From: Bilabrum cf. latius
Taxonomy: Eukaryota
DNA: 64,000 nt
Direction: 5' to 3'
Assembly (NCBI GenBank): GCA_965178125.1
Contig: OZ237757.1
Span: 682,001-746,000, forward strand
The position numbers and the translations under genes were made by a program. A model generated the notes under the pieces. That model was given only the letters and a program-made list of their open reading frames with translations. It ran no database searches and was not told the origin of the DNA. Positions 20,163-54,856 of this stretch are shown here, piece by piece (position 1 is the first letter of the stretch; every line of letters starts with the position of its first letter).

Positions 20163-20221
<59 letters not shown>

Positions 20222-29974: not shown

Positions 29975-30075
29975 TGTTATCCGCCAAAATGTGTGTAGTT
30001 TTTATATAAGTAAACTCTATTTCTACTATATAGTAGAAATAGAGTTATCATAACTCCACATTTTGGCGGATAACA
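29975..30075. other. 101-nt terminal nested hairpin (mirrored at 54756-54856)
   Basis: 19-bp arms TGTTATCCGCCAAAATGTG / CACATTTTGGCGGATAACA enclose a perfect 34-bp palindrome (30013-30046). Confidence 0.95.
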
Positions 30076-31535
30076 TAAGAGGTCAATATTAACCACTTCA
30101 CAACATCTTAAGCCGTAGTCCTTCATAATGTCCTTCACTTGAACATAATAATTTAATAGCTATTTATTCATATATCTACCTAATTTAATACCTTCGCGCC
30201 GTTAATGTCTATCTGTTAGACCTTTACTTTACTTAATCTGTTGAGTGAATCCCTAGCCTAAGTCTTAGGATATGCCCGCCCGAAATTGCGGAAATATATA
30301 GTCATTTAAGAATATATGTTCGCAATTCTGGGCGCGTAGGTGTATTGAGTTTTATATTATGATTTGGTTTTAAGTATCAATTGACATTTACCACTTTAGA
30401 AAATAACTAAATAAATACTTAAAGAGATTGACAGAAGTATTAAAGTCTTTTTAATACTTCCAATGAAAAATTTAAATTAATAAATAAAACTAAACTAATA
30501 TATCAACTTAATTTATCTCTTTTTTTATTACTTGTCAATCTATACTTAAATAATTGAATATTTAAATATAACTAGAAGGAGATATTAATCACTTTATAAA
30601 GTCTTTTATATGTCATCTCTTCAAAACTTCAAATATAAGGGTATCCCCTTAAAAATACATCCTTTAATCTATCGCCCGAAATTGCGGTAATATTATAGCT
30701 ATTCAAGATATATTTCTGCAATTCTGGGCGCGTAGGTGTATTGATTTTTATTTTTCATAATTCTTTAAATATGTTAAAGTCCTTTGTTTGAGTATATGAT
30801 ATAAAGGAATACAAAGCGGGATAACTTAAAAATGATAAATGTTTTGACGATGACTTTAAAATGACTCAATGAACTGGTTTATGTCAAGTGTATTACTTTG
30901 AAATGATTAATCACTAGATTAAATGGAAAATATAGGATAATAAAATATGGTATAGTATAATACTAGCGCCCGAAATTGCGGTAATATATTAGGATATTAA
31001 GATATATTGTCGCAATTCTGGGCGCGTAGGTGTATTGAGTTTTATATTTTGTTAATTTTGACATAGTTATCTTATAGAGGTGTAATTTTGTAATAAAGAT
31101 ATTTCTAGTATGTGCTATATTAAATGTCCAGAAATGACGGCCCGAAATTGCGGAAATATATAAGTATTCTAGAAATTATGTCCGCAATTCTGGGCGCTTA
31201 GGTGTCTTCAATAATTAATAATCAACTACTTCTTTATTTTGATTAATTTTTTTGACTTACCGTTCATTTTATTGACCACTTAACGGGATATCACAAAAAG
31301 ACTTAACCACTTGACGAGATATTTTAAAATAACTAATAATAAATATGACCGCCCCAAATTGTATCTCCAGATATGACCGCCCCAAATTGTATCTCCAGAT
31401 ATGACCGCCCCAAATTGTATCTCCAGATATGACCGCCCCAAATTGCGGAAATATATAAGTATCAAGAAAATTATGTTTGCAATTCTGGGCGCTCACCCGT
31501 ATTCAATTTTACATATTCACTAAGTCATACCACTT
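29975..31535 (+). repeat. Left terminal inverted repeat (~1.56 kb)
   Basis: Reverse complement of 53235-54856 apart from tandem-repeat copy number and one swapped spacer. Confidence 0.95.
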
Positions 31536-32499
31536 GAAGTGGTCCATTTGATCTTGTGTTCATATTTAGAATGTCCTTTAACTGGTTTCAATGTATTGAG
31601 CACTTCTTCTAACTAGTCCTTAACATATGATTTAGTCTAATGATATGTCTTAGTTGTCTTCACCTATTTAATAACTGAACTCTGCTGCGAATCAATGAGT
31701 GCTCCTTCTACATGCCCAATGGCCAAATCACGGACCCGCTCCCACAGTTGGGGCAGTTCCATAAAAAAAACAAACAGGACGTCCCTGCGCCCGTCCCGCG
31801 CCCTCTCCCCCCCACGAGGGACAGTCCGCCCCGAATCGACTGGTTCTCCTCAGTCGCGTCTCGCGCATGCTATACCACACTCGCCACAAATGTACACGCT
31901 ACCCCAATCCTTGCATCGTCTGCGCCTCCAGGCTCGCTCCGATGCCTCCCCTTCTAGTCCTGCCCCATTCTGATCTGCTGTCTCCCTACGCACCCGTACG
32001 TCTCAGCCTTCGCCAGAAATCCTACTGCCTTGTGGTCTGGCCCCACTCGGCTGCCTCCGCTGCCCCTCCCTCCCCATGGGCCTCCACGCTCCCGAGCCCT
32101 ACTGGCTTGCTCGGGCCTGTCCGTGCCCCTTCGTCGTCCCCGCCACGCGTCTGGTTAACCGCGCTCGGGGCATCCCGATCCTCCCCTTTCCTCCGTTCAT
32201 CTTGGAATCCCCCTCTCCGTCGCCTCCCCCGGTGCCACCCGACCCCTTGGTGGGCCGCCGCCCGTCCACCCTGTCACCTCCGCCAAGCTCCCCCGTCTGC
32301 TCCTGTCCCCCTCTCACCTGGCCCCCTCGCTGTCACCTCCCGCCGTTGTTGTCCTCCACCTGCACGTGCGCTGCTGCTGTACCCTCCCCGTCGGAGCCCC
32401 CATCGCTGTCTCACAGCCCTCAATCCCAATGTCTGATGACACAGATAATAATTTACAAGTCTTACCGACAATATACTAAGTTAATAAATCTTGTATCAT
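31517..32499 (-). pseudogene. Small viral gene (90 aa) disrupted by the GC-rich insertion
   Basis: Deleting 710 nt between the two CCCAAT(G) copies restores MIQDLLT(Q)YIVGKTCKLLSVSSDIGHVEGALIDSQQSS...GMT(Q)-TGA. Confidence 0.7.
31721..32424. mobile_element. ~700-bp GC/C-rich non-coding insertion flanked by a CCCAAT(G) direct repeat
   Basis: Host-like GC content inside AT-rich viral DNA; CCCAATG at 31715-31721 and 32425-32431; no TIR or convincing ORF. Confidence 0.8.
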
Positions 32500-32507
32500 A
32501 ATATATT

Positions 32508-32915
32508 ATGTATGAGATAATTATTGATGGATTCAAATATAAACCCTCTACTCGTAAAAATAAGAAATATGATGTATTCAAGAATGGCAAGTATATTACT
32601 AGCTTTGGTGATAAACGATATGCTCAATACTTTGATTTGATTGGTAAGTATGGAGACAATAACCATATTGACTCTAAAAGACGACGCCTATACTACCGAA
32701 GACATGGGAAGACTACCGATACTAATAGCTCAAAATATCACAGTCATAAAATCTTATGGGGAAGTGATAATGCTATTAAGGACTACTTAACAAAACTAGC
32801 CAATGGAGTATTAGATGTAAAAAGGTATGTTAAAGGGGATACTTTGGAAAAATGGTTAGATGACTATAGGTCTAAAGTGGACGCAAGACTGAAACAATTA
32901 AAAATATTAAATTAA
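32508..32915 (+). CDS. Small basic viral protein, DUF5754-like
   Basis: STRKNKKY...FGDKRY..Y....RRRLYYRRH....ILW pattern recalled from giant-virus/virophage proteins; ends TAA. Confidence 0.65.
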   Translation: MYEIIIDGFKYKPSTRKNKKYDVFKNGKYITSFGDKRYAQYFDLIGKYGDNNHIDSKRRRLYYRRHGKTTDTNSSKYHSHKILWGSDNAIKDYLTKLANGVLDVKRYVKGDTLEKWLDDYRSKVDARLKQLKILN

Positions 32916-33072
32916 AAAGTCAATACGCCTACGCGCCCAGAATTGCGAAAATATATCTTGAATAGCTATAATATTACCGCAATTTCGGGCGCCCAAATTT
33001 GAATCGAGCTTAAGACATCTCGTTTAATTAGACTTAAAAATAATATATTATTATAGTATATACTATATTATA

Positions 33073-33606
33073 ATGTGCTATAAATGTCGTAACTTCATAA
33101 TCAATAAGCTAAAGATTAATGACTGGAATAAGATAGCCCCTCTATTAATACCAGCTGGAGAGACTAGAGAAGAAGACGGAAAGTGTATCTGTGATCACCA
33201 AATTAAGGAAGTTCATTTCGTTGAGTATCCCCCAACTGGTGATATATTTAAATTAGGTTCTGAATGTATTAATAACACATTCGAAAAGGATCATGATGTG
33301 TATAAGGCTTGTATGTATAAGACTTGTGATGTATGCTCTTGTGTTGTTAAACGTAGTAGCTGGAAAAGTCATATTAAATCCATTAAACACGAATTAAATA
33401 AAGACATATTAAAAGATAAGAGTAGATGCACTGATTGCGATGAGTTCATTGAAAAACATAAATATAAAAAGACTTGTCTTAGTTGTTATAATAAAAAGAG
33501 GAAATACTCACAATGTAAGAAATGTGAAAAGTATCTTATTAAACCAGGAGCCACTTTCTGGTTTTGTTATGACTGTAACTAGAAGAGAAAGAAATATAAG
33601 AAATAA
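33073..33606 (+). CDS. Viral zinc-finger protein (multiple CxxC, one C2H2-type CDVC...HIKSIKH)
   Basis: Cys pairs throughout; extends through TAG 33580 to TAA 33604-33606. Confidence 0.7.
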
Positions 33607-33646
33607 TGTTTAATTTACGCCAACATATTATATCGTCTTTATATAT

Positions 33647-33966: not shown

Positions 33967-35622
33967 ATGACTAATAAAGGCAAGACATACACTAGAGGTA
34001 AAATATCTTACACGTATGGTGATGAACCGACAAAAAATCAAAAAGATAGTGATAATTTAGAAGCCACTATTAAGGGACTACTTGATAAAGGATTTGAAGA
34101 GGTACCAACTACCAAAGCAAGTATTAAAAAAATACCTTTATATTCTTATGTATCTTATGTAAGTAATATCAAGGGAAAGCCACTATTTAGAAGAGGTGGG
34201 GTAATTAACTCAATATAGAAGGATGGAGACTATTTCACTTTATATAACTTAGTGAGTCGTGTTCATTTTAGCGTTCAATAGTCTAACCTAGTTCGTCTTT
34301 TTTATAAGATGACTAAAGCTTAGACGAAAAAACTTAATAAACCAACCGGTAAATTAATTGAAGTAGAAGATGAGGACGACAAAGACAAATTTAATTATAA
34401 ACCAATATTAAAGAAACTATATTATGAAGAAGGTAATGTAGTCAGTCGTGATGCGTTATATGACCTAGCTAGACAAAAAGATAAACGTATTAAAAGACGA
34501 CAAGTAGAAAAGTGGTTAAATAACTAGATGCTCCACCAATTGACCAAAAAACGACCTAAACAGTCAGCAGTAAGTTCTTTTGTACCTACTAAGCCTTTCT
34601 CAATTTACGCATTGGACTTAATAGACATGCAAAAGTATTCAGACACTAATGACGGCTATAATTGGATATTAAATATAATGGATATATTCACAAAATACCT
34701 ATGGAGTATTTCATTAAAAGATAAGACATTAGTTAATATAATTCGTGAGATGAAGAAACTATTTAAGAAACCTAATTGGAGAAAACCGACTGTTATGTTA
34801 AGTGATAATGAGTTTAATAAAGAGGCATATATTAAATTTATGAATGACAATGACATAAAACCACTATTCACCATCGCAGGAAATCCATAGTCTAATGGTG
34901 CAGTTGAAAGACTTAACAGGACTATAAAAGAATAGATTAGAAAAGACTTTGCTATAAAGAATGACAGTGATGGTGTTTGGCATACGTCATTATAGAGACT
35001 AGTAAGAGCTTATAATAAGAGAAAACACAACACTATAGGAATGTCTCCAATAGAAGCAATGAAACCTGAAAATTTAGAAGTAGTTAGATCTAGAATTGAA
35101 AATAAGAAATTATCAAATAATTTTGACGGGAATGATAAAGATCTTAATGTAGGGGATAGAGTTAGAGTATTACTTGAGAAGAACAAGTTTAAAGGAAATT
35201 TATTTAATTGGTCTAGAGAAGTCTTCACTGTTAGATAGAAGACCAAACCAAGAAATCCTAAGTAGAGGATTAAATATAAAGTAATGGACAAAGAGGGAGA
35301 ACCTCTTACTGGATTCTTTAATGCTTCACAGTTATAGAAAATAGACAATGTAGAACACGAAGATAAGGTAAATGATGACATAGACAAGGAAAGTGAAGAG
35401 CCTGAAATTGATAATGTTGAAGGTTTAGAAGTAGAACCAGACACAATAGAGAAGTTTTTAGATAAAAGACAAAATAAAGATAGACTTATTGAATACTTAG
35501 TCAAATATAAGGGATATTCTAATAAGTTTAATGAATGGATTACCCGTAAGAAATTAGAATAGGATTATGGGAAAGACCAAATACGACCACTTGCGAAAGA
35601 CTATTCTGATAGATAGAGATAA
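33967..35622 (+). CDS. Retroviral-type (rve) DDE integrase with C-terminal chromodomain, 551 aa
   Basis: One frame with about 12 in-frame TAGs. VEKWLNN(Q), ALDLIDM (D), LSDNEF (D), NP(Q)SNGAVERLNRTIK (E), YNKRKHNTIGMSP, VGDRVRV, NWSREVF; chromodomain IEKFLDKR..EYLVKYKGY..NEW. Confidence 0.93.
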
Positions 35623-35852: not shown

Positions 35853-36533
35853 ATGGAATTGTTAAATATAACAAGATACAAAAATAAAGACCTTCTAAAA
35901 AGAGTAGTCAAGTTAAGTGAAAAGTACAAGTGGTCTCGTGATGACTTAAAAATGTTATGGATTAACAAGCATTATTCAAGTTTATAGGGTGAAATAGATG
36001 ATGAAGGGGACGAGATAGCAACTATAAATTTAGTGAGACAACCGTCTAAAATAGAACCTATCTAGTTAAAACCTCCACAATTAGAACGACAATAGGCTAT
36101 ATTGGAAGATGTTGAATTAGATAGCGAAGACATAGAGGATAATAAAGAGGAAGACTATTTGAATGATACATATAGTGATACAAGTAGTGAAGTAGTGAGT
36201 GAAGTCATTGAAGAGAAACCAATTAAAGAGAAACCAAAACCAAAAATCAATATTAGTGATCTTACAGTGAGTGATAAACCTGAATATGTTTATTGTGTAG
36301 AGATTAATGATACAAAGGTATATTTTAACAAAAAGAATACATAGACTTATCCTGATGCTTTAAGAAGAGGTAAATCACACGCTGATAAAATGAGAAAGCG
36401 AGTATTAGGACATCTTCATTTTGATGAGACCGATATGTATGACAGCAACTTATGGTATGCTAAAGTGTGCTGGGGTGATAGTGATAAAATTCATGATAAC
36501 TTTACAAAGTTTAAAAATATCTTATTAAAATGA
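35853..36533 (+). CDS. Hypothetical viral protein (226 aa) with acidic middle region
   Basis: ATG to TGA with in-frame TAGs; includes ORF 36102..36344. Confidence 0.65.
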
Positions 36534-36552
36534 CCACTATATATATAGGTAA

Positions 36553-37059
36553 ATGAAAAACACAATTTGGAAGTTTTTAAATGAATACTTTGATGTCTTT
36601 AGTTTAATACTTAAAATACGAGACGAAAACCCTAGTGATGTCATAAGTACTATAATAGCAATGTATGAAGAGAGCGAAATAGAAGACCCAAAAGAGATCC
36701 ATAAACATATGAGTGAAATACGTCATAACTTGGAACTTAGATTTAAAACAAAGTATGTTGAAGTATTAAGCACAGATCACGATGACAAAGCAGAAAGTTA
36801 TCTCCATCTTAATAATATATTATGTAATATTGAAGGAGAGCAATATGTGGAGGATAGCAAAATCAAGATGTCCGAGAAAAAACAAGTATTTATAAAGACT
36901 TACGGTGATGTGGATAAATTCAACGAGACTGTCCAAGAGATGGAACAAGAAGACGAAAAGACTAAAACAGGAGTAGAAAAAGAAATAGATCAAAAGTTAA
37001 GTCTATTATGTAATACTTCTAAACAACCAGACAATATTTGTCTAGATTATAAATTGTAA
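36553..37059 (+). CDS. Hypothetical viral protein (168 aa)
   Basis: Intact ORF preceded by a CTATATATATAG motif; ends TAA. Confidence 0.7.
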   Translation: MKNTIWKFLNEYFDVFSLILKIRDENPSDVISTIIAMYEESEIEDPKEIHKHMSEIRHNLELRFKTKYVEVLSTDHDDKAESYLHLNNILCNIEGEQYVEDSKIKMSEKKQVFIKTYGDVDKFNETVQEMEQEDEKTKTGVEKEIDQKLSLLCNTSKQPDNICLDYKL

Positions 37060-37171: not shown

Positions 37172-37486
37172 TCACCGTGTTGATTTTTCCACACGTTTTA
37201 ACTCATTCATAATTTCTAAATCAAGTAAGCCATTAATAATACGAAAATCTTTGTAATCTTGCGCCATCTAAAACATTCCTTCATATTTAGGCAACATAGC
37301 CATTTTAAGACCTAGGATAGACTTAATATCTTCGTAGGTAATAATCTAGTCTTTTTCTACTTCTTTTAGCTCTTCAACTTCACAAATACGAAGGTCCTTT
37401 CCATCAAAAAATTGATCAAAAGCTGTCTTTACCTTTTTTAATATATTGTTCAAACTTTTTATGTTATAAATATTATTAAAGTTCAT
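37172..37486 (-). CDS. Hypothetical viral protein (104 aa)
   Basis: ATG to TGA with two TAGs; preceded by CGCCAAAAAATATTTACTATATATATAG. Confidence 0.6.
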
Positions 37487-37642
37487 TTCTATATATATAT
37501 AGTAAATATTTTTTGGCGGAATAATTAAACTTAGGATCTAACCGCCCGAAATTGCGGAAATATTATAGCTATTCAAGATATATTTGTGCAATTCTGGGCG
37601 CGTAGGCGTATTGACTTTTGTATTATTTTGTATTTATTTGTA

Positions 37643-38281
37643 TTATATTTGGTACCCTAACTAGAGGCAATTCCTCAATTTATCGTGAAGCTATTCGTAA
37701 GTATTATAAATGTAATAGCTAGAAGGGTTCAACTCTTTGATATAAGAGTTACGGTCTTCTAACATAGACTTCTATTTATCTACTTTCTAATTCTTTAAAG
37801 TCTTCTAGAATAGTGAATTAGATGGAAGACATACAACTATACTTTCTTTTTTAAATAACTCATTAGCTAGACTTAACTCTTTAGTAAAGAATATTACTCT
37901 CTTCTCGCTACCTTCATTCAACCAGTTATCTTTTACCCATTGAAGGGCTTCTTTACTGGCTTTTCTATTAAGTATATTATAATTACCCCAATCACTTTTT
38001 AACTTACATTCGTCTAGTTTCATAAGTAATTCGGGCTCCTAGACATATACTCCTAGAGTACTATCTAAATCAACAAGTAAACAGTCTTTAGAACTAGACC
38101 GTAATATTTGACAAGCGGTAGACTTACCACTACCTTCAGGCACACAGATACATATTTTTTTACGTTTATGTAAAGGTTTATCCCATAACCACTACCAACA
38201 AGACATACCACCAGAGTATGCTAGAGGTAGTAAGACACTTAAACCTCCTACAACGACACTGCTTGAACTGATTCCATCCAT
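37643..38281 (-). CDS. Viral P-loop NTPase/kinase-like protein (212 aa)
   Basis: Walker A-like ICVPEGSGKST followed by LLVDLD; frame continuous through TAGs to TAA. Confidence 0.6.
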
Positions 38282-38324
38282 TTTATTATATTAATAAAAA
38301 AGATATTTCTATAATTAAACTCAA

Positions 38325-39047
38325 TTATCCTGTTAAGAAAATACAAGGTACGACTTTATATTCTACTCCATTAGCATCAGTAGAAGTACCACTTGAAAAG
38401 TCTTCATCTACTAGAGCTTTTGCTACAATAGTCTAATCAACAGAGACTGGTTGAGGATTAGGCGCGTAGACATATCCACTATCAGAGCTATTTATTAAGT
38501 AGTCACCCGCACTTACATCTCCTCCATTTTTATTTACTTTCACAGCTCCATCACCTAAAGATGCCACAAGTACTTTACCATCATCATGGTGTTCTCCTAC
38601 ATATACTCCAAAAGGTGGTGAATGTTGAGATGCTTGACTTACGACATATTCATTAGTTGTGGGTCCTTTATTAACTACACTATCAAGAGTAACCACTGAC
38701 CCAATACCAGCTGGTAAACTAGAAGCAACATCACTACAAGATGCAACATGTGTACCGGTAAATGATAAGAAGTTGGTTGCTGTCATAGTACTGGTTTGAG
38801 TTCCATCACCTGCGACATTAATTGAGATAGATGCACCTGCTGATGCTGAGTTTTTACCTATTCTCCATGTGAAAGACTTAGCATCTTCATTAGTACCACT
38901 CATAATATAGGGTAGTGATTGACCATTGAAGTTAAGTCCAAAGTTAGCGGCTCCATCAAAGCCTTCTGCTTTAATTGATTCTACTTCAATAGACTTACTC
39001 TTTAATTCATATTCATTTTTGTTTAAGAGATTGTATATTCCTGCCAT
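38325..39047 (-). CDS. Putative fibre/spike-associated protein with Peptidase_G2/chaperone-like C-terminal domain (240 aa)
   Basis: FTGTH...SLGDGAVKV..GDYLINSSDSGY...(Q)TIVAKAL..DF pattern recalled from viral fibre C-termini. Confidence 0.55.
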
Positions 39048-39290
39048 TACTTATATTATATTAGCTAGACTAGATATTTTTTTTTTAAATTACGAGATTT
39101 TAAAAAGTTAGTAGTATAAGATATAGTATAATACTAGCGCCCCAAATTGCGATAATATATTAGGATATTAAGATATATTTCCGCAATTCTGGGCGCGTAG
39201 GCGTATTGATTTTTATAATTTAGTTATTTTTAATATAGCCACCTCTTACAATGTAATATTTTTAAATTAAAATATTATAGTATATACCAT

Positions 39291-40733: not shown

Positions 40734-40772
40734 CGTATAATTATATTATGATAATAGATAATATTATTAAAT

Positions 40773-41216: not shown

Positions 41217-41250
41217 TATAATAAAGAACTATAATATTTCTTATTAATAT

Positions 41251-44926: not shown

Positions 44927-45853
44927 ATGGTAGAGATTCAAGAACCAGATATCTTTTATATTAACTCATAGGATACTATAACATCTATTAATACTAATAG
45001 ACCAGTATCAATACATGAACAGCGTCAAGGTAATATCTTGACAAATTCACAAAACTACTTATTATCACTTGACCGATGGACTCTTAAATGTCGTATTCCT
45101 TTATTTGTAGCAAGTAAAGAAGTAAAGAATAGCGATAATTAGTCAATTTATAAGATGTCGTTTGTGAAGAAGAGTGATGGAACTACTTACACTCGTAATA
45201 TTGTCTTAACTAAGCCGTTATATTATAGTCTTAAGACCCTATCTAATGAATTTAATAATACTCTTAGTGATTTATGTGGAGATGCTAGTATTCCAACTGA
45301 TAGTATAGTATTTGAATATCACGGTAAGACTAAAACATTTAGTTTCACCCGTTTAGCCGCTTTTACAAGTGCGTGGACTTTAAGTTTTAACTTTCCTTTA
45401 TTCTCTATCTTTGAGACATTTGAATATGACGATGAAGGTAAAGACATCAAGAGTGATACTTATATAAATCTATTAGATGGATATAATGAATAGAGTGCTT
45501 CTACCTTAGATTAGTTTCCTACTATGGAGTATATTCAAATTATTAGTCCATCACTTCCAATACTTCCAGAATTTACGCCATCATATAAAAGTACATCTAG
45601 TACAGAGATACAAAGTGAAAATATCTTAAGTGATTTCAAGATAGACAATACAACAGGAACGAGTTTTATTAAAATAAACTTTAGTAGTGGAGGAAATCAT
45701 AGATGGCAATAGTTCTATAGATCAGCATTTAATAGTTATAGTATAGTACCGTATTTTAGAGATACTTTTGGAAACTTATACGAAATACCCTTTACTTTTG
45801 GACAAGGACTTAATATAAAAGCTCTATTTAAAAGTAAAAAGTTAATAACTTAA
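44927..45853 (+). CDS. Minor capsid (penton) protein (308 aa)
   Basis: Located just before the MCP; N-terminal EQRQGNILTNSQNYLLSLDRW and C-terminal FRDTFGNLY...IKALFKSK resemble virophage pentons. Confidence 0.75.
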
Positions 45854-45895: not shown

Positions 45896-47782
45896 ATGTC
45901 TGATATGGATAATGTACCTGTAGCAGCACAAAGCAAAGTCGTAGATGACGTCTCAGAACTACCAGTAACTCAAATAGCTGACGAAAAACTCAACTTTGTG
46001 GGTGATAGTCAAGCTATTACTCTAGGAACTACCCTTGGATACTCTTCCAAGTTTCAAAATCACTACGAACCAGATGGTGGTAACTCTAGCGCAACTAATG
46101 CATTTAGAAGTAATTATACTTTCGTAGTGCCATCAAATCAAGGAATGACTGACAGTAATCCCCGTCTAAGAGTTTCATTTGACGTATACATCTATGATAG
46201 TTAGAACAATGGAGCAGTAGCTCAAACTGATATCGTCAATAAGGTAGCCCCTTCTACATTTATGGTAAATTCAATGATCACAAGTTCCACAGTTAAAATG
46301 GGAGACTTATCTCGTAGTTCATCACCTTATCAATTAGTCAATTTAATAGCTAGAAGTCTTGACCGTGCCACTCTAGCACAAATAAGTCCTGTCTTTTAGG
46401 CTGATAACACTTGGGAATTTAATACTGCCGCAAATGGTCTTGCTAAGTCTGTCCTTCAATGGGGTGTAAATGATGATAGTATTATGGAAGCTCGCGGTCC
46501 TGGTAAGAATTACCGCGCAACACTTGAAAAAGTGGATGCTAATACTCCAATACCTAATAATAATGTAACACCAACTCAAGACTATGTCAAATTACATATT
46601 GAAATCTCTGAAGCACTTCTTGCACGTCCTTTCCAATATATGATGGGTGGTAATGCTAGACCTTTTGTTGATCATCCACAATTAAATGTTAATTTACAAA
46701 TGAGAAATAACTTAATTGATAAGATGTTTAATACTTCAAGTGATTGGAATGGAGACTATGCTTTTGCTTTATCCGATTGCTAGATCCATTTTGATGTCTT
46801 TACTTATAATACTCATCTTAACTTCTTGAAGAAAGTACCTAAACAAATATTCTACAACTCTGTTGACTTTGAACTACATGAAGAGCCTAAACTTGATAAT
46901 CCTATCACTACTAAAGGTGTCCATACTTTTAATAATTATCAACTTTAGACTTGCCCTTCTTGGTTTGCTGTGTGCTTAGTTGATTCTCAATATGGAGAAG
47001 CTAGTGGTACACCTCATAGAACACTTGCCATTAACAATATTAAAGTACAACTTAGGTCTTAGGGTTCTATTTTAGGAGAACTTACACAAGACGATATCTT
47101 TAGACTTAGTGAAAGAAATGGATCAAATAGTGAGTATGCTTCTTTTACTAACTTAGATGTAACTGTAGGAGGTGCTTCTAAAGTATACGGATCTAATGGC
47201 TGGCTCTTATTTAGACTTAGTGATTTAAATACTCCTGAAACTATTCAAAGCAACAGTGCTGACCCTATTAGTATTCGTGTTCAAGTAGCCTATGACGAAC
47301 CCCCAACCGCTGCTATGTCTCAAGGATATAAAGCTCAATTATTCTGTGCCTATGACAAGATTATCGTGAATACTAGAGGTGCCGCTATTGAATGGCGTGA
47401 AGATAGTGCTTCTGTTGACCCTGAGAAAGTGGCTAAACCTTCTAATTATACATTTTCTAATATGAACTACTCTAAGAACGTATTAGGTGGAAGACGTCGT
47501 AAAGTGATGCAATTCTTTAAGAGAGCCTTTAACAAAGCTAAAGACTTAGGACGTAAAGTGGTAGACTTTGGAAAGAAAGCTAAAGCTAAATTTGATAAAG
47601 TGAAACCAGCTCTTCGTAAAGCAAGACAAGCAGTAAGTGAATACTTACCCGATGAAGTGAATGACCTAGCTGAACGTGTTGGAGCAGGTCTTTTAACTAG
47701 TGGTGGAAGTCTTTTGACCAGTGGAGGTAAGAAATTAACTAAGGCTCAACTTATGAAACTTAGAAAGTAGCTCAATATGTGA
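45896..47782 (+). CDS. Major capsid protein, virophage-type double jelly-roll (628 aa) with basic C-terminal extension
   Basis: Longest beta-rich ORF of the block, in one frame through TAGs. Size and gene order match virophage MCPs; VLGG-RRRK and TSGG di-glycine sites in the tail. Confidence 0.8.
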
Positions 47783-47969: not shown

Positions 47970-48392
47970 ATGGCAGCAGTATCACCGTGTGAAGACTTAC
48001 TTTATATGGAGTATTCATTCTTATTCTTACCACATAGAGAAGACCCAACACTTAAATCTCAAAAGGTTTACTTAGATGATGAACTTGAAGGAGATCCTGA
48101 AGACATTGTAATAGATAAAGATTAGATACAAGTAAATAATAGAGGTCATATAAAGACATATGTAAGTGAAGGAGGCTTTACAAAGTTAAAGGTAGGATAG
48201 ATAATTGAAGAGATGGAGCAAGAGGTGCGTAATTAGAATGGTATTCATTATGATTGTATTTTTTATCATAAAGTTGAACACGACACGAGCACAGATATTT
48301 ATAAAGTAGTATGGGGGTGGTATCCAGCAGACTTTCCAACAAATGGATGCGACCCTGCTATCTTGTATAAGAAACCCCCTAATATGGATTAA
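47970..48392 (+). CDS. Hypothetical viral protein (140 aa), absent from the ORF track because of 3 TAGs
   Basis: ATG after CGCCAAAAAATATCCACTATATATATAG; ends TAA. Confidence 0.65.
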
Positions 48393-48534
48393 TTATTAAA
48401 AACTCAATACGGGTACGCGCCCAGAATTGCGGAAATATATCTTAAATAGCTATAATATTACCGCAATTTCGGGCGGTCATATCTTAAGACTAGTTTATTA
48501 CTTTCGCCAAAAAATATCCACTATATATATAGTA

Positions 48535-48924
48535 ATGTCAGATAAAGTAGATTTAAAAATATCGTTTTCTCAAAGTCTTGTATCAAGTGTAAACCTTGAT
48601 TGGGATGGAATAGGTAAGATGTTATGTGGAAAAATCACAAGTAAGATAGAAGGAAATGAGATAGTGTTAAGACAAATAGGTCAACCGACTCCAAAAGATG
48701 GAATGATGGAGTTCTCATACACGACCGACTATAAAGCAAATCAAGTTTTTGAATTACTTAAAGACTTAACTGATGAAAGACAAGACGCGATTATGGGATA
48801 CGTTCATTGTAAGTTAAGTGATAGCAACAGGAAAAGAAGACCATTAACTGAAGAAGATCACAGACAAATGATTCTGGATGCTATGGATAGGAGTGTTAAA
48901 GAATATAAAAAACATATGTCATAA
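48535..48924 (+). CDS. Hypothetical viral protein (129 aa, MSDKVDLK...)
   Basis: ATG directly after the shared upstream cassette; ends TAA. Confidence 0.65.
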   Translation: MSDKVDLKISFSQSLVSSVNLDWDGIGKMLCGKITSKIEGNEIVLRQIGQPTPKDGMMEFSYTTDYKANQVFELLKDLTDERQDAIMGYVHCKLSDSNRKRRPLTEEDHRQMILDAMDRSVKEYKKHMS

Positions 48925-49228
48925 TTAAGTCTTAATAATAAAGTCTTAATATTAAAGTTATTAATATTAAGTCATATCTATGTAATAAAAAAAAATTTCT
49001 TTGAGCTAGTAATTATACCGATGGTTTGACTACTTGGCGAAGTCATTCGTAAGTCATTGTTGTAGCGGAGATGCGAATGTCAACCATGGACCGCTATCCC
49101 TATTAAGTCTTACGACTAAGTCTGCTACAACCACTTACGACTACTTCTACAGTATCCAAACTCCCTTCAAAGACTTGCAAGACGTGTGCTTTGTCATGAA
49201 AATGACTTACAGAACGACTTACGGCGAT

Positions 49229-49299
49229 GTCAGTGGCGGGAATCGAACCCACGACCTTGACTTTGTGAAACAATCACGATATCACTAGACCAAGACCAC
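49229..49299 (-). ncRNA. Degenerate tRNA-like sequence / Pol III type-2 promoter (A and B boxes)
   Basis: Minus strand: A box TGGTCTAGTGA (49292-49282), variable loop AGGTC and T arm GTGGG-TTCGATT-CCCGC at tRNA spacing. Acceptor, D and anticodon stems pair poorly. Confidence 0.45.
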
Positions 49300-49477
49300 A
49301 ACGCACCAAGAGGTAAAAAATATTATATTCAAATAAATTTAAAAATTCAATACACCTACGCGCCCAGAATTGCGGAAATATATCTTAAATAGCTATAATA
49401 TTACCGCAATTTCGGGCGGTCATATCTTAAGACTAGTTTATTACTTTCGCCAAAAAATATCCACTATATATATAGTA

Positions 49478-49828
49478 ATGTCAGATAAAGAAGATATCAA
49501 AATTGAACTATCTCAAAATTTTATAGATGAATGTCTTGTTAAAGGTGTAGGTGTCGATGATGTAGTCAGTAGTATAGGTAAAAGTATTGAGAATCACTTT
49601 GATAAATATGTATGGATGAAACCAAAAGACAAAGGTGATGGTTATCGTTAGAATGTCTTTAGTTTTAAATTCGACAATATTATCAAGAAACTCGAAAGTA
49701 CATTGGAACAGTTAGAATATGAAGAGCAAGTGAAACACGTCTAGGAGCTGATGTATCGTGTTGAAAGAAGTGAATGTGAAAGGAAGAAGAGAGAAGAAAA
49801 AATTAAAAAGACAAAAAGAGACCACTAA
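49478..49828 (+). CDS. Hypothetical viral protein (116 aa, MSDKEDIK...), probable distant paralog of 48535
   Basis: Near-identical upstream cassette and N-terminus; two TAGs; ends TAA. Confidence 0.6.
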
Positions 49829-49890: not shown

Positions 49891-52689
49891 TTAATTTTGT
49901 TGTTCTAGTGGATCATTATCCTCATCAACAAATAAAGCGGGGTCTAAGTCAACCTCTATCTCTTCATCGGGTAATTGAACCTCTTCATCATCAACAAATA
50001 TATCTACTTCACGAGTCTTTTTCTTGTTAGACCAGATATATTCCATCTCATCAATAATATCCTAATTAAATTCTACATCATAGTTAATTTTCTTTTTCTT
50101 ACAAGTCATAAATATGTCTTTCCCAAACATTGATTTATATACTTTAAGTATTTCGTAATAAAGACCTTTATCAGTGGATAAGTCAACTTTACTTCTTCTT
50201 TGGCAGTCATACACTGTCCTATATTCATCTGTTAAGTCTTGATCTAATACTTTCTTTTTGATATTATAATCAAGATTAGTTCTTTTAAGACCTAAAGTAT
50301 CAATCATCTTATTAAGTAAGACTAATTTTCTAGAACTAGACTTAGCATTGATAATATCAAACTCGCCTTTATTAATTGCTTTCACAAGTAAGTGCTTATC
50401 ATCTTGTCTAAAGAATTTATTGAAATTAAATAAATTAGATAACTTACCTTTATTAATAAAGTACTCTTTGTATTTGTCAATATCACCTTCATCTAAGTCT
50501 AAATATTTATTAATCTTCTTGACATTAAGACAATTAATATCAAAATTTTCAAGTTGTTTTTCTTTAATGGTATCTTTGATTTCTTTATCCTTACATCTGG
50601 TGATCTTAACAGATAAATCATAAGACACGTCATAACCGGTATCAATTAACTACTTGATCATATGTAATTTAGGGTTTGTCTTATAACAATCTACCTTGTA
50701 AAGATAATTACGATATAGTTTTTTGAATATGATTTTAACTTTGCTCATTTCTTCTTCTACTTTGTCTTCTACTTCTACCTCGTTGAAGTCGGGATATGTA
50801 TCACTGACAAATTTAACTAATTCTTCGTAGTCTTTTAAAGAGGTAGCCATAAAAGATTTAACTTGTGAAAGACTTTCATATGTGCTAGATCGTCCTTTCT
50901 AGTAATCAAAAAATATAGTGATATGTGATGGGTTTCTACATCTGTTAAGCTATTGAACCATTTGGGGAGGTGTGATAGTATGACCTTTGAAATAACCAAA
51001 GACTGGTCTAGTCATAGTGCTATCTATCCCGTAAATGACTTTAGGTGAGAAGATAATGATATCAAACATATCCATATCATAGTCTTTGTCTTCGCTTTCT
51101 GCTGTAAGTATTAAGATTTTATTTAATTTCTTATCTTTCTCGTTATCTATAATTTTAAGACTAATTAACTCATTGATTATATCAGCTTTTGTCTTACTAT
51201 CACTAGCAAGCATAAATTTCTTGTGTTTCATTAACTCATCTCTAAAAGTCTGTTCGTCATTAACAAATACAGTTTTGGTGCCCTTGAACCTGTTTCTGTC
51301 ATTCCTAATATATTGATAATCTAATTTTAATAATTCTAAGAAATATAGAGCATCTTGAGATAAGTCAGCATCTGCTACTATGAACTACTTACAAGTGGTA
51401 AGAGCACGAATAAGAGTAATGAAACTCATTGGTCGCCTACCATATAAAGTCGTAGAACTTAAACAGTGTTCTAAGATACTATTAAACTCATCTAAAAAGA
51501 CAATATAATCCTTAAAGTTATAATTGCTAAGACTAACAATACTTTCAGGAGTAATAACAATACTATCACCCTATTTGTATTTATGGTCTTGATAGAATTT
51601 AGTTGATTTTGGAAGACTACGCATCTATTGCTTACCTAATAAAATACGACTTACAACTGATAAAAAGCTGTCATCTACTCTATTAAATAAATCATTAGCA
51701 GCAGTTGTCTTTCCAGAACCAGCCCCCGACTTAACGGCATAGTTGATACCTTTCTTAAAGAATTTAATATAACGACCTTTGTCGTCAGCAGTCAAATATC
51801 TACGGTCAATCTTCTAATTGACTTTCTTGACTACTTTATTCTTGAATATCTTGTATCGATAATATAGGCTAAGTCGTTTCTTTTCACTATCTAACTAATT
51901 AAAGAACCATTCAACACATTGAAAAGTGGAATTTTCTAATAATCGAGTAAAAATTATCTTGTTCTTAGTCGACTAATAGCTTTCTACGTCTTGTTTGCTC
52001 CATTCATCAAATATATCATATACCTTATTACCATCTACTGGATTTAAGTATTTAGCGATATAACTTGTAGCTCTACAAACTAGATGCCAGTTATATGAAT
52101 TAGAATAATACTCTTTACCTAATTGATATAAGTATTGTTTGTATTCTTCGGGTTTAATCATATAACGGTAGTCTTCAGCTGTAAGTTGTGGTGAATAGAT
52201 ATTTTGTAGTATGAACATCTTGACGTCAGTTGGTATTCTTTTCACGGATGTCTTTTGTATTAGTTCGTATTTCTTACCGTTGATAGAGCTAGGAGGACAC
52301 ATGATAAAGCTATCATTTGTGATCACATCTATATGTTCTTTTCTATTTACTGACCTCTTACTAAACTCTTCTTCATACTTAAAATACAAATGATATCCAT
52401 TGGGAGACTTGACAGTGTAAGTATTCATCTCTTGAATAAACTTATCAACACTACCATATTCCGCAATAAACTTACCATTTTGAAATTCAGTTTTATTTTT
52501 CTCTTTTTCACAATCTAAGTCAAGGACAAAGAAACCTGCACGTCTTCCAGTAAGTAATCCAACATTAAGATTTGACTTTCTGGTGATAAGTTTAGTAGAT
52601 TCCAAATTCTACCAAGACTTAATAAGTGGTTGTTTAGAGTTGTGAGCTATTGAGAAATAAACAGGGTTAGATATGTGTTCGGTCGTCAT
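49891..52689 (-). CDS. Bifunctional primase-polymerase (Prim-Pol/PriCT) fused to a UL9/origin-binding-like SF2 helicase (932 aa)
   Basis: KQPLIKSW(Q), NVGLLTG, VLDLD, KSPNGYHLYF, MCPPSSING; FDEWSK (PriCT-like); helicase VKSGAGSGKTT, VSRILL, FLDEFNS, ADADLS, FSPKVIYGID, QMVQ(Q)LNRCR. Confidence 0.85.
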
Positions 52690-52719
52690 TCTAGTATATA
52701 CTATACTAAAGATAATTTT

Positions 52720-52932
52720 TTAAGTCATTTTCTAGACGCACTATTTTGGCTTAAAGGATTGAGATGGATTTTCGCGCACAACTAGAGTATTTTTAAATTT
52801 TTCAATTTCTGCTGGGGATTTCCCGATTAGTAAATAACTTATAGTCTCTTGAAACTCTATTGGTAAGTCTTGTAATTGATGTATTGGTTTATTGATAACT
52901 TGATTATTTGATTTGGTATCTATTAAATCCAT
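52720..52932 (-). CDS. Small hypothetical viral protein (70 aa)
   Basis: ATG to TAA through two TAGs. Confidence 0.45.
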
Positions 52933-52964
52933 TATTAATAATACTATAATAATAGAATATATTT

Positions 52965-53174
52965 TTAAGTCTTATTTAATCCTTCTGTATCTGGTTCATC
53001 CTTAACCTGTTTTCTCTTCTAATAGTACCCCTTCCATTTCTCTTGATTCTTTTGGTAATATTTCTATTTAGCTTTTTTAATAGCTTCTTTCTTTTTGGTC
53101 TCCTATTCCTTGAGTCTTTGATAATCTTCCATAATGTCTTGAACCTATTTTAATACATCTTTAATATCTGGCAT
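52965..53174 (-). CDS. Small basic helical viral protein (69 aa; KKAK(Q)KYYQKNQEK)
   Basis: ATG to TAA through four TAGs. Confidence 0.5.
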
Positions 53175-53234
53175 TACTATAGTAATATACTAGATAAATC
53201 TTTAAGTTTTTTAAACTAGAAAATGACTTAAAAT

Positions 53235-54856
53235 AAGTGGTATGACTTAGTGAATATGTAAAATTGAATACGGGTGAGCGCCCAGAATTGCAAACATAAT
53301 TTTCTTGATACTTATATATTTCCGCAATTTGGGGCGGTCATATCTGGAGATACAATTTGGGGCGGTCATATTTATTATTAGTTATTTTAAAATATCTCGT
53401 CAAGTGGTTAAGTCTTTTTGTGATATCCCGTTAAGTGGTCAATAAAATGAACGGTAAGTCAAAAAAATTAATCAAAATAAAGAAGTAGTTGATTATTAAT
53501 TATTGAAGACACCTAAGCGCCCAGAATTGCGACAATATATCTTAATATCCTAATATATTACCGCAATTTCGGGCCGTCATTTCTGGACATTTAATATAGC
53601 ACATACTAGAAATATCTTTATTACAAAATTACACCTCTATAAGATAACTATGTCAAAATTAACAAAATATAAAACTCAATACACCTACGCGCCCAGAATT
53701 GCGACAATATATCTTAATATCCTAATATATTACCGCAATTTCGGGCGCTAGTATTATACTATACCATATTTAATTATCCTATATTTTCCATTTAATCTAG
53801 TGATTAATCATTTCAAAGTAATACACTTGACATAAACCAGTTCATTGAGTCATTTTAAAGTCATCGTCAAAACATTTATCATTTTTAAGTTATCGTCAAA
53901 ATATTTATCATTTTAAAGTCATCGTCAAAACATTTATCATTTTTAAGTTATCGTCAAAATATTTATCATTTTAAAGTCATCGTCAAAATATTTATCATTT
54001 TTAAGTTATCCCGTTTTGTATTCCTTTATATCATATACTCAAACAAAGGACTTTAACATATTTAAAGAATTATGAAAAATAAAACTCAATACACCTACGC
54101 GCCCAGAATTGCGAAAATATATCTTGAATAGCTATAATATTACCGCAATTTCGGGCGATAGATTAAAGGATGTATTTTTAAGGGGATACCCTTATATTTG
54201 AAGTTTTGAAGAGATGACATATAAAAGACTTTATAAAGTGATTAATATCTCCTTCTAGTTATATTTAAATATTCAATTATTTAAGTATAGATTGACAAGT
54301 AATAAAAAAAGAGATAAATTAAGTTGATATATTAGTTTAGTTTTATTTATTAATTTAAATTTTTCATTGGAAGTATTAAAAAAGACTTTAATACTTCTGT
54401 CAATCTCTTTAAGTATTTATTTAGTTATTTTCTAAAGTGGTAAATGTCAATTGATACTTAAAACCAAATCATAATATAAAACTCAATACACCTACGCGCC
54501 CAGAATTGCGAACATATATTCTTAAATGACTATATATTTCCGCAATTTCGGGCGGGCATATCCTAAGACTTAGGCTAGGGATTCACTCAACAGATTAAGT
54601 AAAGTAAAGGTCTAACAGATAGACATTAACGGCGCGAAGGTATTAAATTAGGTAGATATATGAATAAATAGCTATTAAATTATTATGTTCAAGTGAAGGA
54701 CATTATGAAGGACTACGGCTTAAGATGTTGTGAAGTGGTTAATATTGACCTCTTATGTTATCCGCCAAAATGTGGAGTTATGATAACTCTATTTCTACTA
54801 TATAGTAGAAATAGAGTTTACTTATATAAAAACTACACACATTTTGGCGGATAACA
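53235..54856 (-). repeat. Right terminal inverted repeat (~1.62 kb)
   Basis: Reverse complement of 29975-31535. Confidence 0.95.

What the first reader, a model, noticed from the sequence alone, without database searches (positions are those of the whole stretch)
29975..54856. Apparently intact provirophage whose genome is written in the host's UAG=Gln code
Seen: nearly every viral core gene is broken only by TAG, never by TAA or TGA, even though TAA is abundant in this AT-rich DNA. TAG falls at positions where Gln is expected: integrase NP*SNGAVER (34888) and WLNN* (34525), primase SW*N (52609), helicase QMVQ*LNRCR; it also sits inside the ATPase Walker A (G*AGAGKS, 43276). Known: virophages such as mavirus integrate via rve integrase and depend on a giant virus. 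Inference: this virophage is recoded to match an amber-reassigned host, so it could not be expressed in standard-code cells, and its helper giant virus should also avoid UAG as a stop. Standard annotation would call it a decayed relic. I know of no described recoded virophage, but could not search the literature.
Basis: partly seen in the sequence, partly recalled or inferred. Interest (0 to 1): 0.95.

Follow-up and report, generated by a model that had tools for sequence, protein, structure and literature searches.

The report
Integrated virophage written with TAG as glutamine
A complete, recently inserted mavirus-like virophage sits inside a gene of a GC-rich protist, and both it and its host use the stop codon TAG as a glutamine codon, so ordinary gene finders would wrongly call it a dead relic.

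Summary
Window 29975-54856 is a 24.9-kb AT-rich element (about 30% GC in about 62% GC flanks). It has 1.56-kb terminal inverted repeats that are 97-100% alike and a 5-bp target duplication (CCGCG), and it appears to be inserted in frame into a host ORF.

With TAG read through it has 20 ORFs containing 77 in-frame TAG. All 20 end in TAA or TGA. Reading through TAA or TGA instead does not restore long ORFs.

The capsid proteins match solved mavirus structures: major capsid E 1.5e-15, penton E 1.9e-12. The element also encodes an rve integrase with a chromodomain, a primase-helicase, an ATPase and a cysteine protease.

TAG means glutamine. Six TAGs lie in columns where distant homologs have a majority residue, and 5 of the 6 are Gln columns (up to 145 of 149 proteins, and 80 of 80 IMG/VR loci). 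The sixth is Lys.

The host flanks also need TAG as a sense codon: 53 in-frame TAG across seven ORFs, the longest 2129 codons. For the host, Gln itself is shown at only one paralog site. No tRNA lies in the window.

The nearest precedent I found is Bellas 2023, where endogenous virus elements of Streblomastix use that host's code 6. My searches found no UAG-only virophage. The scan has noted TAG=Gln giant-virus MAGs on other DNA. I rate this a new variant of a known kind.

The parts
29970..29974 (.). Left copy of the 5-bp target-site duplication (CCGCG)
   Evidence: Read directly. The same 5 bases follow the right TIR at 54857-54861.
29975..31535 (.). Left terminal inverted repeat, about 1.56 kb. 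It holds copies of the intergenic hairpin element and a 28-nt tandem repeat.
   Evidence: inverted pairs I2, I3, I1 and I5, 97-100% complementary. The two arms differ in the copy number of the 28/29-nt tandem repeats.
31676..32448 (.). 773-bp GC-rich (64% GC) insertion private to this copy. Probably a host repeat, possibly a solo repeat of a retrotransposon.
   Evidence: Contigs of 3 of the 4 runs laid (X1, X6, X3) join 31675 directly to 32449, 'skips 773'. One contig of X3 reads from the insert's end back into its start. There is no other copy in the window.
32508..32915 (+). 135-aa protein, no TAG, DUF5754-like
   Evidence: Pfam PF19058 E 1.1e-5, 25.8 bits, below the 27.4 cut-off. tblastn hits in 13 of 80 IMG/VR loci.
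33073..33606 (+). 177-aa Cys-rich protein, 1 TAG
   Evidence: ORF. No Pfam family.
33967..35622 (+). rve integrase with C-terminal chromodomain, 551 aa, 12 TAG
   Evidence: Pfam rve 32.8 bits (cut-off 32.6) and Chromo 30.3 bits (cut-off 25.1). PDB integrase and chromodomain matches. 13 homologs aligned.
35853..37059 (+). Two ORFs of unknown function: 35853-36533 (226 aa, 4 TAG) and 36553-37059 (168 aa, 0 TAG)
   Evidence: No Pfam family.
37172..42785 (.). Seven accessory ORFs:
- 37172-37486, minus strand (104 aa, 2 TAG)
- 37643-38281, minus strand (212 aa, P-loop GSGKST, 7 TAG)
- 38325-39047, minus strand (240 aa, 1 TAG)
- 39291-40733, minus strand (480 aa, Lys/Glu-rich, 5 TAG)
- 40773-41216, minus strand (147 aa, 1 TAG)
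- 41251-42069, plus strand (272 aa, 5 TAG)
- 42264-42785, minus strand (173 aa, 3 TAG)
   Evidence: Only sub-threshold Pfam hits. The 147-aa ORF has weak tblastn matches (E about 5e-6) in L008, L017, L042 and L046.
42931..43998 (+). Putative packaging ATPase, 355 aa, 6 TAG, one of them inside Walker A (G-TAG-AGAGKS, codon at 43276)
   Evidence: Pfam AAA_10 and AAA_22, both just below their cut-offs. Aligned with 4 ORFs from IMG/VR loci plus P0169: Walker A is conserved and FDD (Walker B) is invariant. No PDB sequence match.
44018..44566 (+). Putative cysteine protease, 182 aa, 3 TAG
   Evidence: His64, Asp81, Gln129 and Cys138 are invariant in an alignment with 5 ORFs from IMG/VR loci. Pfam Peptidase_C57 only E 0.0043, below the cut-off. 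No PDB sequence match.
44927..45853 (+). Penton (minor capsid) protein, 308 aa, 5 TAG
   Evidence: PDB 6g41, mavirus minor capsid protein, E 1.9e-12 over residues 24-280. Sputnik 3j26_N E 4.5e-5.
45896..47782 (+). Major capsid protein, 628 aa, 6 TAG
   Evidence: PDB 6g45, mavirus MCP, E 1.5e-15 over residues 68-540. Pfam MCP_V20_C 30.4 bits, above the 27 cut-off. Two relatives at 88% and 86% identity.
47970..49828 (+). Three small ORFs that share one upstream motif: 47970-48392 (140 aa, 3 TAG), 48535-48924 (129 aa, 0 TAG), 49478-49828 (116 aa, 2 TAG)
   Evidence: No Pfam family.
49891..52689 (-). Primase-polymerase plus helicase fusion, 932 aa, 11 TAG
   Evidence: Pfam Prim-Pol E 8.9e-14. 948 representatives at E<=1e-3. 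80 IMG/VR loci.
53235..54856 (.). Right terminal inverted repeat
54857..54861 (.). Right copy of the 5-bp target-site duplication (CCGCG)
29317..29974 (+). Upstream part of the interrupted host ORF. With the element and one TSD copy removed it joins in frame to 54862-58778, a Upf1-like helicase with AAA_11/AAA_12 domains.
   Evidence: Frame worked out (..LGR|GTSTHRFALNAT..). Pfam on the downstream part. The upstream 219 aa have no Pfam family, so their coding status is inferred.

Best explanation
This is an endogenous mavirus-like virophage. An rve integrase inserted it recently into a coding region of a GC-rich, apparently intron-poor eukaryote. That host reads UAG as glutamine and keeps UAA and UGA as stops. 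The virophage carries no tRNA of its own, so the host apparatus must translate it. It has adapted fully to that code: a third of its Gln codons are TAG, and it never uses TAG to stop. In a standard-code cell 17 of its 20 ORFs would be truncated.

Shown here: the anatomy, the capsid homology, Gln at TAG in the virophage, and sense use of TAG in the host.

Inferred: that host UAG is also Gln, that the element can be reactivated by a giant virus as mavirus is, and that such a helper virus must tolerate UAG=Gln.
For: Anatomy:
- GC is 29-38% in the island and 53-68% in the flanks.
- The TIRs are about 1.56 kb and 97-100% alike.
- There are identical TIR tips and a 5-bp TSD, and the element appears to interrupt a host ORF in frame.

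Virophage identity:
- MCP against solved mavirus MCP 6g45, E 1.5e-15. Pfam MCP_V20_C is above its cut-off.
- Penton against mavirus 6g41, E 1.9e-12, and Sputnik 3j26_N, E 4.5e-5.
- rve plus chromodomain integrase and Prim-Pol.
- Protease catalytic residues invariant. ATPase Walker A and B present.

TAG is a sense codon:
- 77 in-frame TAG. Stops are TAA 15 times and TGA 5 times.
- Only TAG read-through restores long ORFs.

TAG means Gln, helicase, 149 representatives aligned:
- Site 355: Gln in 132 of 147.
- Site 580: Gln in 145 of 149.
- Site 435: Gln in 80 of 148.
- Of the 4 majority-Gln columns, the element has TAG at 3 and CAA at 1.
- Gln ranks first among the 20 amino acids.

TAG means Gln, 80 IMG/VR loci translated by the standard code:
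- Site 580: Gln in 80 of 80.
- Site 355: Gln in 73 of 78.
- Site 435: Gln in 27 of 80.

TAG means Gln, integrase distant homologs:
- Site 187: Gln in 6 of 10.
- Site 457: Gln in 7 of 11.

The host uses the same codon as sense:
- Seven host ORFs hold 53 in-frame TAG. The longest are 2129, 1681, 1556, 1420, 1306 and 1182 codons.
- In both histidine-kinase paralogs, Pfam domains lie on either side of TAGs.
- One TAG faces Gln in the paralog in a stretch that is 18 of 25 identical.

Other support:
- No tRNA or other Rfam RNA in the window.
- Near-identical copies occur in runs of 2 studies. Of the 20 displayed coding differences, 13 are synonymous and 7 are not. Only 40 of 211 differences were displayed.
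- A relative's ATPase, apparently called under the standard code, ends exactly one residue before TAG codon 351.
Against: Not every TAG sits in a Gln column:
- Helicase site 597 is Lys in 112 of 148.
- Site 680 is Leu or Ile in 127 of 147.
- Site 239 is Asp or Asn in 121 of 142.
- Site 27 is Lys, Ser or Thr.
- Integrase site 343 is Pro in 5 of 11.

The close relatives' Gln at MCP and integrase TAG sites may itself have been translated from TAG, so I do not count it.

Host-side identity of the amino acid rests on one good paralog site. The four other paralog sites I looked at closely, all in stretches with at most 11 of 25 identities, show Lys, Leu, Ile and Glu. The one TAG in the host alpha-galactosidase domain lies in a variable loop.

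The host tRNA-Gln(CUA) and eRF1 could not be examined because no genome is held.

The ATPase and protease have only sub-threshold family matches.

Nothing here shows dependence on a giant virus.
Confidence: 0.85

Rival explanations
1. It is a decayed relic, and the TAGs are ordinary nonsense mutations in dead genes.
For: Under table 11 every core gene is broken.
Against: All 77 interruptions are TAG, although TAG makes up only 25% of out-of-frame stop triplets. Nothing suggests a frameshift: the MCP and integrase are within a few residues of their close relatives' lengths (628 against 630-632 aa; 551 against 548-554 aa), and the penton is 308 aa against 307 for the mavirus chain. TAGs sit in near-invariant Gln columns. 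The TIRs are 97-100% alike. Differences between copies lean synonymous, 13 of the 20 displayed.
Confidence: 0.01
2. TAG is a sense codon but encodes another amino acid, such as Glu, Lys, Leu or Tyr as in other UAG reassignments, or is decoded ambiguously.
For: Some TAGs fall in Lys, Glu/Asp or Leu/Ile columns. In a repeated host domain, one TAG faces Asp, Glu or His when I compare the repeats by eye in the translations.
Against: Three helicase TAGs lie in columns that are 54-97% Gln, and Glu, Lys and Tyr are never seen in the two strongest. Two integrase TAGs are in majority-Gln columns. Gln scores best of the 20 amino acids; Lys is second and Glu fourth.
Confidence: 0.04
3. The recoding is private to the virus. 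The host would use the standard code, and a suppressor tRNA would come from the element or from a helper giant virus, as in TAG-recoded phages.
For: This is the known mechanism in recoded phages, as recorded in this scan's earlier notes. Giant viruses often carry tRNAs.
Against: No tRNA was found in the element or anywhere in the window. Host ORFs of 1182-2129 codons with Pfam domains exist only if TAG is sense. Host ORFs end in TGA or TAA, never TAG.
Confidence: 0.02
4. It is a polinton-like virus or Maverick-type element that spreads on its own, not a virophage that needs a giant virus.
For: Dependence on a helper was not tested. The primase-helicase is shared with 80 IMG/VR contigs of 5-28 kb, and at tblastn E<=1e-5 none of them matches this MCP. 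There is no protein-primed polymerase.
Against: MCP and penton give direct sequence matches to mavirus and Sputnik capsid proteins and to the virophage-specific Pfam family. Size, TIRs, TSD and the rve integrase match the endogenous mavirus-like elements of Cafeteria (PMC8547959, passages read).
Confidence: 0.1

Closest known systems
Endogenous mavirus-like elements (EMALEs) of Cafeteria burkhardae and mavirus itself (Hackl et al. 2021, PMC8547959, passages read; solved capsid proteins 6g45 and 6g41)
   Same: - An AT-rich virophage genome embedded in a high-GC host, flanked by TIRs and TSDs.
- An rve integrase, a primase/helicase, MCP and penton homologous to mavirus.
- Conserved upstream motifs.
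- Multiple near-identical copies.
- A GC-rich insertion inside the element, as with the Ngaro retrotransposons and their solo repeats in EMALEs.
   Different: The passages I read say nothing of a variant nuclear code in Cafeteria; only its mitochondrion was annotated with a non-standard code (PMC6972860, passages). Here 17 of the 20 ORFs carry in-frame TAG read as Gln. There is no protein-primed polymerase; a 932-aa primase-helicase takes its place. Host GC is about 62%, not 70%.
Endogenous virus elements of Streblomastix strix, whose capsid genes fall in the Metamonada group of Bellas et al. 2023 (PMC10120064, passages read); the same paper also names the Tlr elements of Tetrahymena
   Same: Integrated small DNA viruses with related capsid genes that use their host's non-standard translation table. 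The authors take this as a sign of long association between virus and host.
   Different: That case is code 6, where both TAA and TAG mean Gln, in a metamonad. Here only TAG is reassigned and TAA is the main stop. This element is also a complete mavirus-type virophage with TIRs and TSD.
UAG-only nuclear reassignments (Panek et al. 2017, PMC5304391; McGowan et al. 2024, PMC11687900; I saw only the search listing and the start of each abstract)
   Same: UAG has a meaning different from UAA, and UAA/UGA remain stops.
   Different: The host here is unidentified. It is GC-rich and has long uninterrupted ORFs. Whether it belongs to a lineage already known for this code could not be tested.
Giant-virus MAGs best annotated with alternative codes, among them code 15 (GVMAGs V2, PMC13524828, passages read), and the virophage with an ochre-suppressor tRNA (Paez-Espino 2019, PMC6905037, passage read)
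   Same: Viruses of eukaryotes whose coding suggests hosts with reassigned stop codons.
   Different: Those are metagenomic genomes with no host attached. The word 'virophage' does not occur in the GVMAGs paper's main text. Here virus and host lie on one molecule.

Membership tests
Virophage (mavirus-like, endogenous) | Virophage-type double jelly-roll major capsid protein | tested here: met
   PDB mavirus MCP 6g45, E 1.5e-15, residues 68-540. Pfam MCP_V20_C 30.4 bits against a cut-off of 27. The fold itself was not modelled; it is inferred from homology to a solved structure.
Virophage (mavirus-like, endogenous) | Penton (minor capsid) protein | tested here: met
   PDB mavirus 6g41, E 1.9e-12. 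Sputnik 3j26_N, E 4.5e-5.
Virophage (mavirus-like, endogenous) | FtsK/HerA-type packaging ATPase | tested here: inconclusive
   Walker A and B are present and conserved with 4 IMG/VR ORFs. Pfam AAA_10 at 25.2 bits and AAA_22 at 25.9 bits are below their cut-offs. No PDB match. The gene order ATPase-protease-penton-MCP resembles mavirus; that order is recalled, not tested.
Virophage (mavirus-like, endogenous) | Adenain-like cysteine protease | tested here: inconclusive
   His, Asp, Gln and Cys are invariant in 6 sequences. Pfam Peptidase_C57 E 0.0043 is below the cut-off. No PDB match.
Virophage (mavirus-like, endogenous) | Integration by rve integrase, with TIRs and a short TSD | tested here: met
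   rve plus Chromo domains. 1.56-kb TIRs. 5-bp TSD.
Virophage (mavirus-like, endogenous) | Replication depends on a co-infecting giant virus | not testable with these tools
   No giant-virus sequence is linked. The intergenic motif was not found in IMG/VR.
UAG=Gln genetic code with UAA and UGA as stops (table-15 type) | In-frame TAG in conserved genes, and TAG never terminal | tested here: met
   Virophage: 77 TAG in 20 ORFs, with 0 of 20 stops being TAG. Host: 53 TAG in 7 ORFs, with 0 of 10 stops being TAG. Control.
UAG=Gln genetic code with UAA and UGA as stops (table-15 type) | TAG aligns to glutamine in homologs that use the standard code | tested here: met
   Virophage: 5 of the 6 TAGs in majority-conserved columns are in Gln columns. 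Host: one paralog site only.
UAG=Gln genetic code with UAA and UGA as stops (table-15 type) | tRNA-Gln with a CUA anticodon, and an eRF1 that no longer reads UAG | not testable with these tools
   No tRNA in the window. No genome is held for this window.

The most novel reading that the evidence does not exclude
This host and its virophage are the cellular anchor of a whole recoded virus community. A UAG=Gln protist lineage would carry virophages that have used the code for a long time: TAG supplies 35% of their Gln codons, eleven times more than CAG. Its giant viruses would be among the TAG=Gln giant-virus genomes so far known only from metagenomes. The code would act as a host-range lock that confines both virus layers to this lineage.
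Probability: 0.3. Interest if true: 0.8.

Novelty: new variant of a known kind. Interest (0 to 1): 0.62.

Why it matters
Virus, integration site and host genes lie on one molecule, so the shared code is not in doubt, unlike in metagenomic bins. This matters in four ways:
1. It is a worked example of a complete virophage that standard annotation would discard as a pseudogene field. Surveys of endogenous viruses that assume the standard code will therefore undercount such elements.
2. It points to a host, apparently available as sequenced material in two studies, in which a rare UAG-only nuclear code and a virophage can be studied together.
3. It predicts that any helper giant virus of this host tolerates UAG=Gln. 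That gives a concrete way to look for the hosts of recoded giant-virus genomes.
4. It allows a test of whether a code change limits virus exchange between protist lineages.

Tried and rejected
Searches for relatives that found nothing or little:
- No whole genome is held for this window, so the host tRNAs, eRF1 and other virophage copies could not be examined.
- The single MCP in IMG/VR gave no match.
- The MCP alignment in JGI metagenomes gave 171 pattern matches, none confirmed.
- The intergenic motif in IMG/VR gave 0 matches.
- The word-based protein search found only 2 MCP relatives and 1 partial ATPase relative, so the Walker-A site could be compared with only 4 distant ORFs.
- tblastn of all 20 proteins against the 80 IMG/VR loci at E<=1e-5 hit only the helicase (80 loci), the DUF5754-like protein (13), the protease (6), the ATPase (5) and the integrase (2). 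There was no MCP or penton hit. At E<=1 there were three weak MCP hits.

Sequencing runs:
- No RNA holder was listed.
- Run X7 held next to none of the words, and its contigs touched only short AT-rich pieces.
- No empty-site contig appeared among the displayed rows. 165 loose-end rows and 171 difference rows were not shown, so nothing can be said about whether the insertion is polymorphic.

Host side:
- The host alpha-galactosidase TAG falls in a variable loop.
- The paralog pair of surface proteins is too diverged to use, at 23% identity.

Earlier findings and literature:
- Look-ups of earlier findings by place and by sequence returned nothing.
- Searches combining virophage with alternative, non-standard or variant genetic code, stop-codon reassignment, UAG or amber returned no paper describing a virophage written in a UAG=Gln code.
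- Hits that turned out to be irrelevant: Crassvirales codes (PMC11502894), the plastid code of Phaeocystis (PMC12480563) and the mitochondrial code of Cafeteria (PMC6972860).
- The cryptophyte PLV paper ran Codetta on its hosts, but the results are in a supplement I could not see (PMC12220804).

Not done: structure prediction. The capsid proteins already match solved mavirus structures by sequence.

Full report
**What is there**

The window has a sharp compositional island. GC is 29-38% between about 30.0 and 54.8 kb, against 53-68% on both sides (fine profile).

The island is bounded by inverted repeats of about 1.56 kb that are 97-100% complementary: 29975-31535 and 53235-54856. The two arms differ only in the copy number of 28/29-nt tandem repeats.

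Both arms begin with the same tip. The five bases CCGCG directly precede the left tip (29970-29974) and directly follow the right tip (54857-54861).

Removing the element and one CCGCG copy joins the ORF that starts at 29317 in frame to the ORF that runs to 58778 (..LGR|GTSTHRFALNAT..). The downstream part is a Upf1-like helicase with AAA_11 and AAA_12 domains. The upstream 219 residues match no family. So the claim that the virophage sits inside a coding sequence is likely but inferred.

**The stop-codon observation**

Under table 11 the island holds 3 ORFs of at least 200 codons. With TAG read through it holds 11, the longest being 942, 638 and 564 codons. Reading TGA through changes nothing, and reading TAA through gives at most 381.

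The 20 ORFs I defined have 77 in-frame TAG. They end in TAA 15 times, TGA 5 times and TAG never. Seventeen of the 20 carry at least one TAG.

Out of frame in the same genes, TAG is only 359 of 1438 stop triplets. Random decay therefore cannot give 77 of 77 (log10 P about -46). These ORFs were delimited by TAA/TGA, so the proper control is, not the zero count itself.

**What the element is**

- Major capsid protein (45896-47782): it matches the solved mavirus MCP 6g45 at E 1.5e-15 over residues 68-540. It also matches Pfam MCP_V20_C above its cut-off.
- Penton (the gene before it): it matches the solved mavirus penton 6g41 at E 1.9e-12, and the Sputnik minor virion protein at E 4.5e-5.
- Integrase (33967-35622): it has an rve core and a C-terminal chromodomain, both above their cut-offs.
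- Primase-helicase (49891-52689, minus strand): it begins with a Prim-Pol domain at E 8.9e-14. It has 948 relatives at E<=1e-3 among 1.84 billion representatives.
- ATPase: Walker A and B are conserved with ORFs of IMG/VR contigs, but its family scores are below the cut-offs.
- Protease: it has invariant His, Asp, Gln and Cys, but its family scores are also below the cut-offs.

The closest described objects are the endogenous mavirus-like elements of Cafeteria: AT-rich virophages with TIRs and TSDs in a high-GC genome, often interrupted by GC-rich retrotransposons (PMC8547959, passages).

**What TAG encodes**

I aligned the helicase, with X at each TAG, to 149 representatives (P0019-P0167). 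I left out P0018, which is 87% identical and may itself be recoded.

| TAG site | Residues in homologs |
|---|---|
| 580 | Gln 145 of 149 |
| 355 | Gln 132 of 147 |
| 435 | Gln 80 of 148 |
| 597 | Lys 112 of 148 |
| 680 | Leu or Ile 127 of 147 |
| 239 | Asp or Asn 121 of 142 |
| 27, 292, 373 | variable polar |
| 265, 876 | columns with 9 and 11 residues only |

Of the four majority-Gln columns in that alignment, the element has TAG at three and CAA at one. Gln is the best-scoring amino acid overall, ahead of Lys, Arg and Glu.

An independent check used DNA from 80 IMG/VR loci translated by the standard code, so that their Gln is CAA or CAG. It gave Gln in 80 of 80 at site 580, 73 of 78 at site 355 and 27 of 80 at site 435.

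In the integrase, distant homologs have Gln in 6 of 10 at site 187 and 7 of 11 at site 457. They have Gln in only 2 of 11 at site 308, which does align to Gln in the solved integrase 4pa1. Site 343 is Pro in 5 of 11.

Taken together, 5 of the 6 TAGs that fall in majority-conserved columns are in Gln columns.

Close relatives show Gln at most MCP and integrase TAG sites. I do not count them, because their Gln may have been translated from TAG.

One relative's ATPase, apparently called with the standard code, stops exactly one residue before this element's TAG codon 351. That suggests the relatives are recoded too.

**The host**

The flanks contain ORFs of 2129, 1681, 1556, 1420, 1306 and 1182 codons only if TAG is sense. 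Reading TAA or TGA through gives nothing above 694.

Seven host ORFs hold 53 in-frame TAG beside 277 CAG and 100 CAA. Ten ORFs examined end in TGA (8) or TAA (2).

The ORFs are real genes. They include two paralogous hybrid histidine kinases in which TAGs lie between the HATPase_c and receiver domains, a Upf1-like helicase, an alpha-galactosidase and a Rad21/Rec8 fragment.

Which amino acid the host inserts is shown directly only once: TAG faces Gln between the two kinase paralogs in a stretch that is 18 of 25 identical. The four other sites I looked at closely, all in stretches with at most 11 of 25 identities, show Lys, Leu, Ile and Glu.

The window has no tRNA and no Rfam family. The simplest reading is one shared apparatus that reads UAG as Gln.

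In the virophage, TAG supplies 77 of 222 Gln codons (35%), CAA 138 and CAG 7. In the host, TAG supplies 53 of 430 (12%). TAG and CAA each contain one G or C. An AT-rich genome that treats TAG as a full synonym would therefore be expected to use it this way. That argues for long residence in this code.

**State of the element**

Contigs from runs of two studies hold 93-94% of the sampled words of the 9.8-kb core.

Laid on 29500-49499, contigs from three of the four runs are mostly more than 99% alike. Among the 20 displayed differences that fall in genes, 13 are synonymous and 7 are not. Only 40 of 211 differences were displayed.

Contigs from those three runs join 31675 directly to 32449. The 773-bp GC-rich stretch next to the left TIR is therefore an insertion private to this copy. 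One contig of X3 reads from the insert's end back into its start, as a repeat would.

**Comparison and novelty**

Seven literature searches found no paper describing a virophage in a UAG=Gln code. The idea is not without precedent, though:
- Bellas et al. 2023 found that the endogenous virus elements of Streblomastix strix use that host's TAA/TAG=Gln table.
- Paez-Espino et al. 2019 read an ochre-suppressor tRNA in a virophage as a hint of host reassignment.
- A 2026 catalogue reports giant-virus genomes that annotate best under alternative codes, among them code 15. Two earlier notes of this scan led me to that paper.

The case here is a complete mavirus-type virophage, physically joined to host genes that use the same rare UAG-only code. 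I rate it a new variant of a known kind. It is interesting mainly as a tractable anchor for recoded virus-host systems and as a warning for standard-code surveys.

Noticed in passing
window 30279-54552: 29 arm matches, for example 44834-44889, 47854-47909, 48419-48474 and 49362-49417: A conserved element of about 60 nt forms a 13-14-bp hairpin around a 30-nt AT-rich loop. Its arm motif occurs 29 times in the intergenic regions and TIRs of the element and never in the 39 kb of host flanks. One copy folds at -22.4 kcal/mol, z-score -3.5. It may be a transcription stop/start signal or a protein-binding site.
   Followed up: partly
window, the 60 nt upstream of each of the 20 ORFs (for example 33907-33966, 47910-47969, 45836-45895): There are two kinds of upstream sequence. 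Six genes (the integrase and five small ORFs) share ..CGCCAAAA..ACTATATATATAG.. directly before the ATG. Several others, among them the MCP and the helicase, share an ..ATATCT.. motif with TCTA-like cores. These may be two promoter classes. I did not test them against any giant virus.
   Followed up: partly
window 31676-32448: A 773-bp C-rich insertion (64% GC, 44% C) lies just inside the left TIR and is absent from the other copies of the virophage in three sequencing runs. One contig reads from its end back into its start. It resembles the solo retrotransposon repeats described inside Cafeteria EMALEs.
   Followed up: partly
window 53821-54039 and 31343-31473: Tandem repeats of 29 nt (about 7 units) and 28 nt (about 4 units) lie inside the TIRs. 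Their copy numbers differ between the two arms.
   Followed up: no
window 27607-29094, minus strand: Next to the insertion site, an ORF holds about 25 near-perfect copies of a 17-residue unit (PPGEEGTEGAAWGR..). No family matched it.
   Followed up: no
window 15820-22209 (plus strand) and 58953-63998 (minus strand); 1492-5754 and 22583-27253 (both plus strand): Two paralog pairs flank the element. One pair is hybrid histidine kinases that are 45% identical, with long low-complexity linkers. The other pair is very large surface proteins with Ser/Pro-repeat stalks, a transmembrane helix and a Cys-rich tail.
   Followed up: partly
window 11265-14810 (minus strand) and 57900-58775 (plus strand): A domain of about 50 residues (..S/A-x-I/L-G-x-x-F/Y..G..L..) recurs five times in one ORF and three times at the C-terminus of the Upf1-like helicase. 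One copy carries three TAG codons.
   Followed up: no
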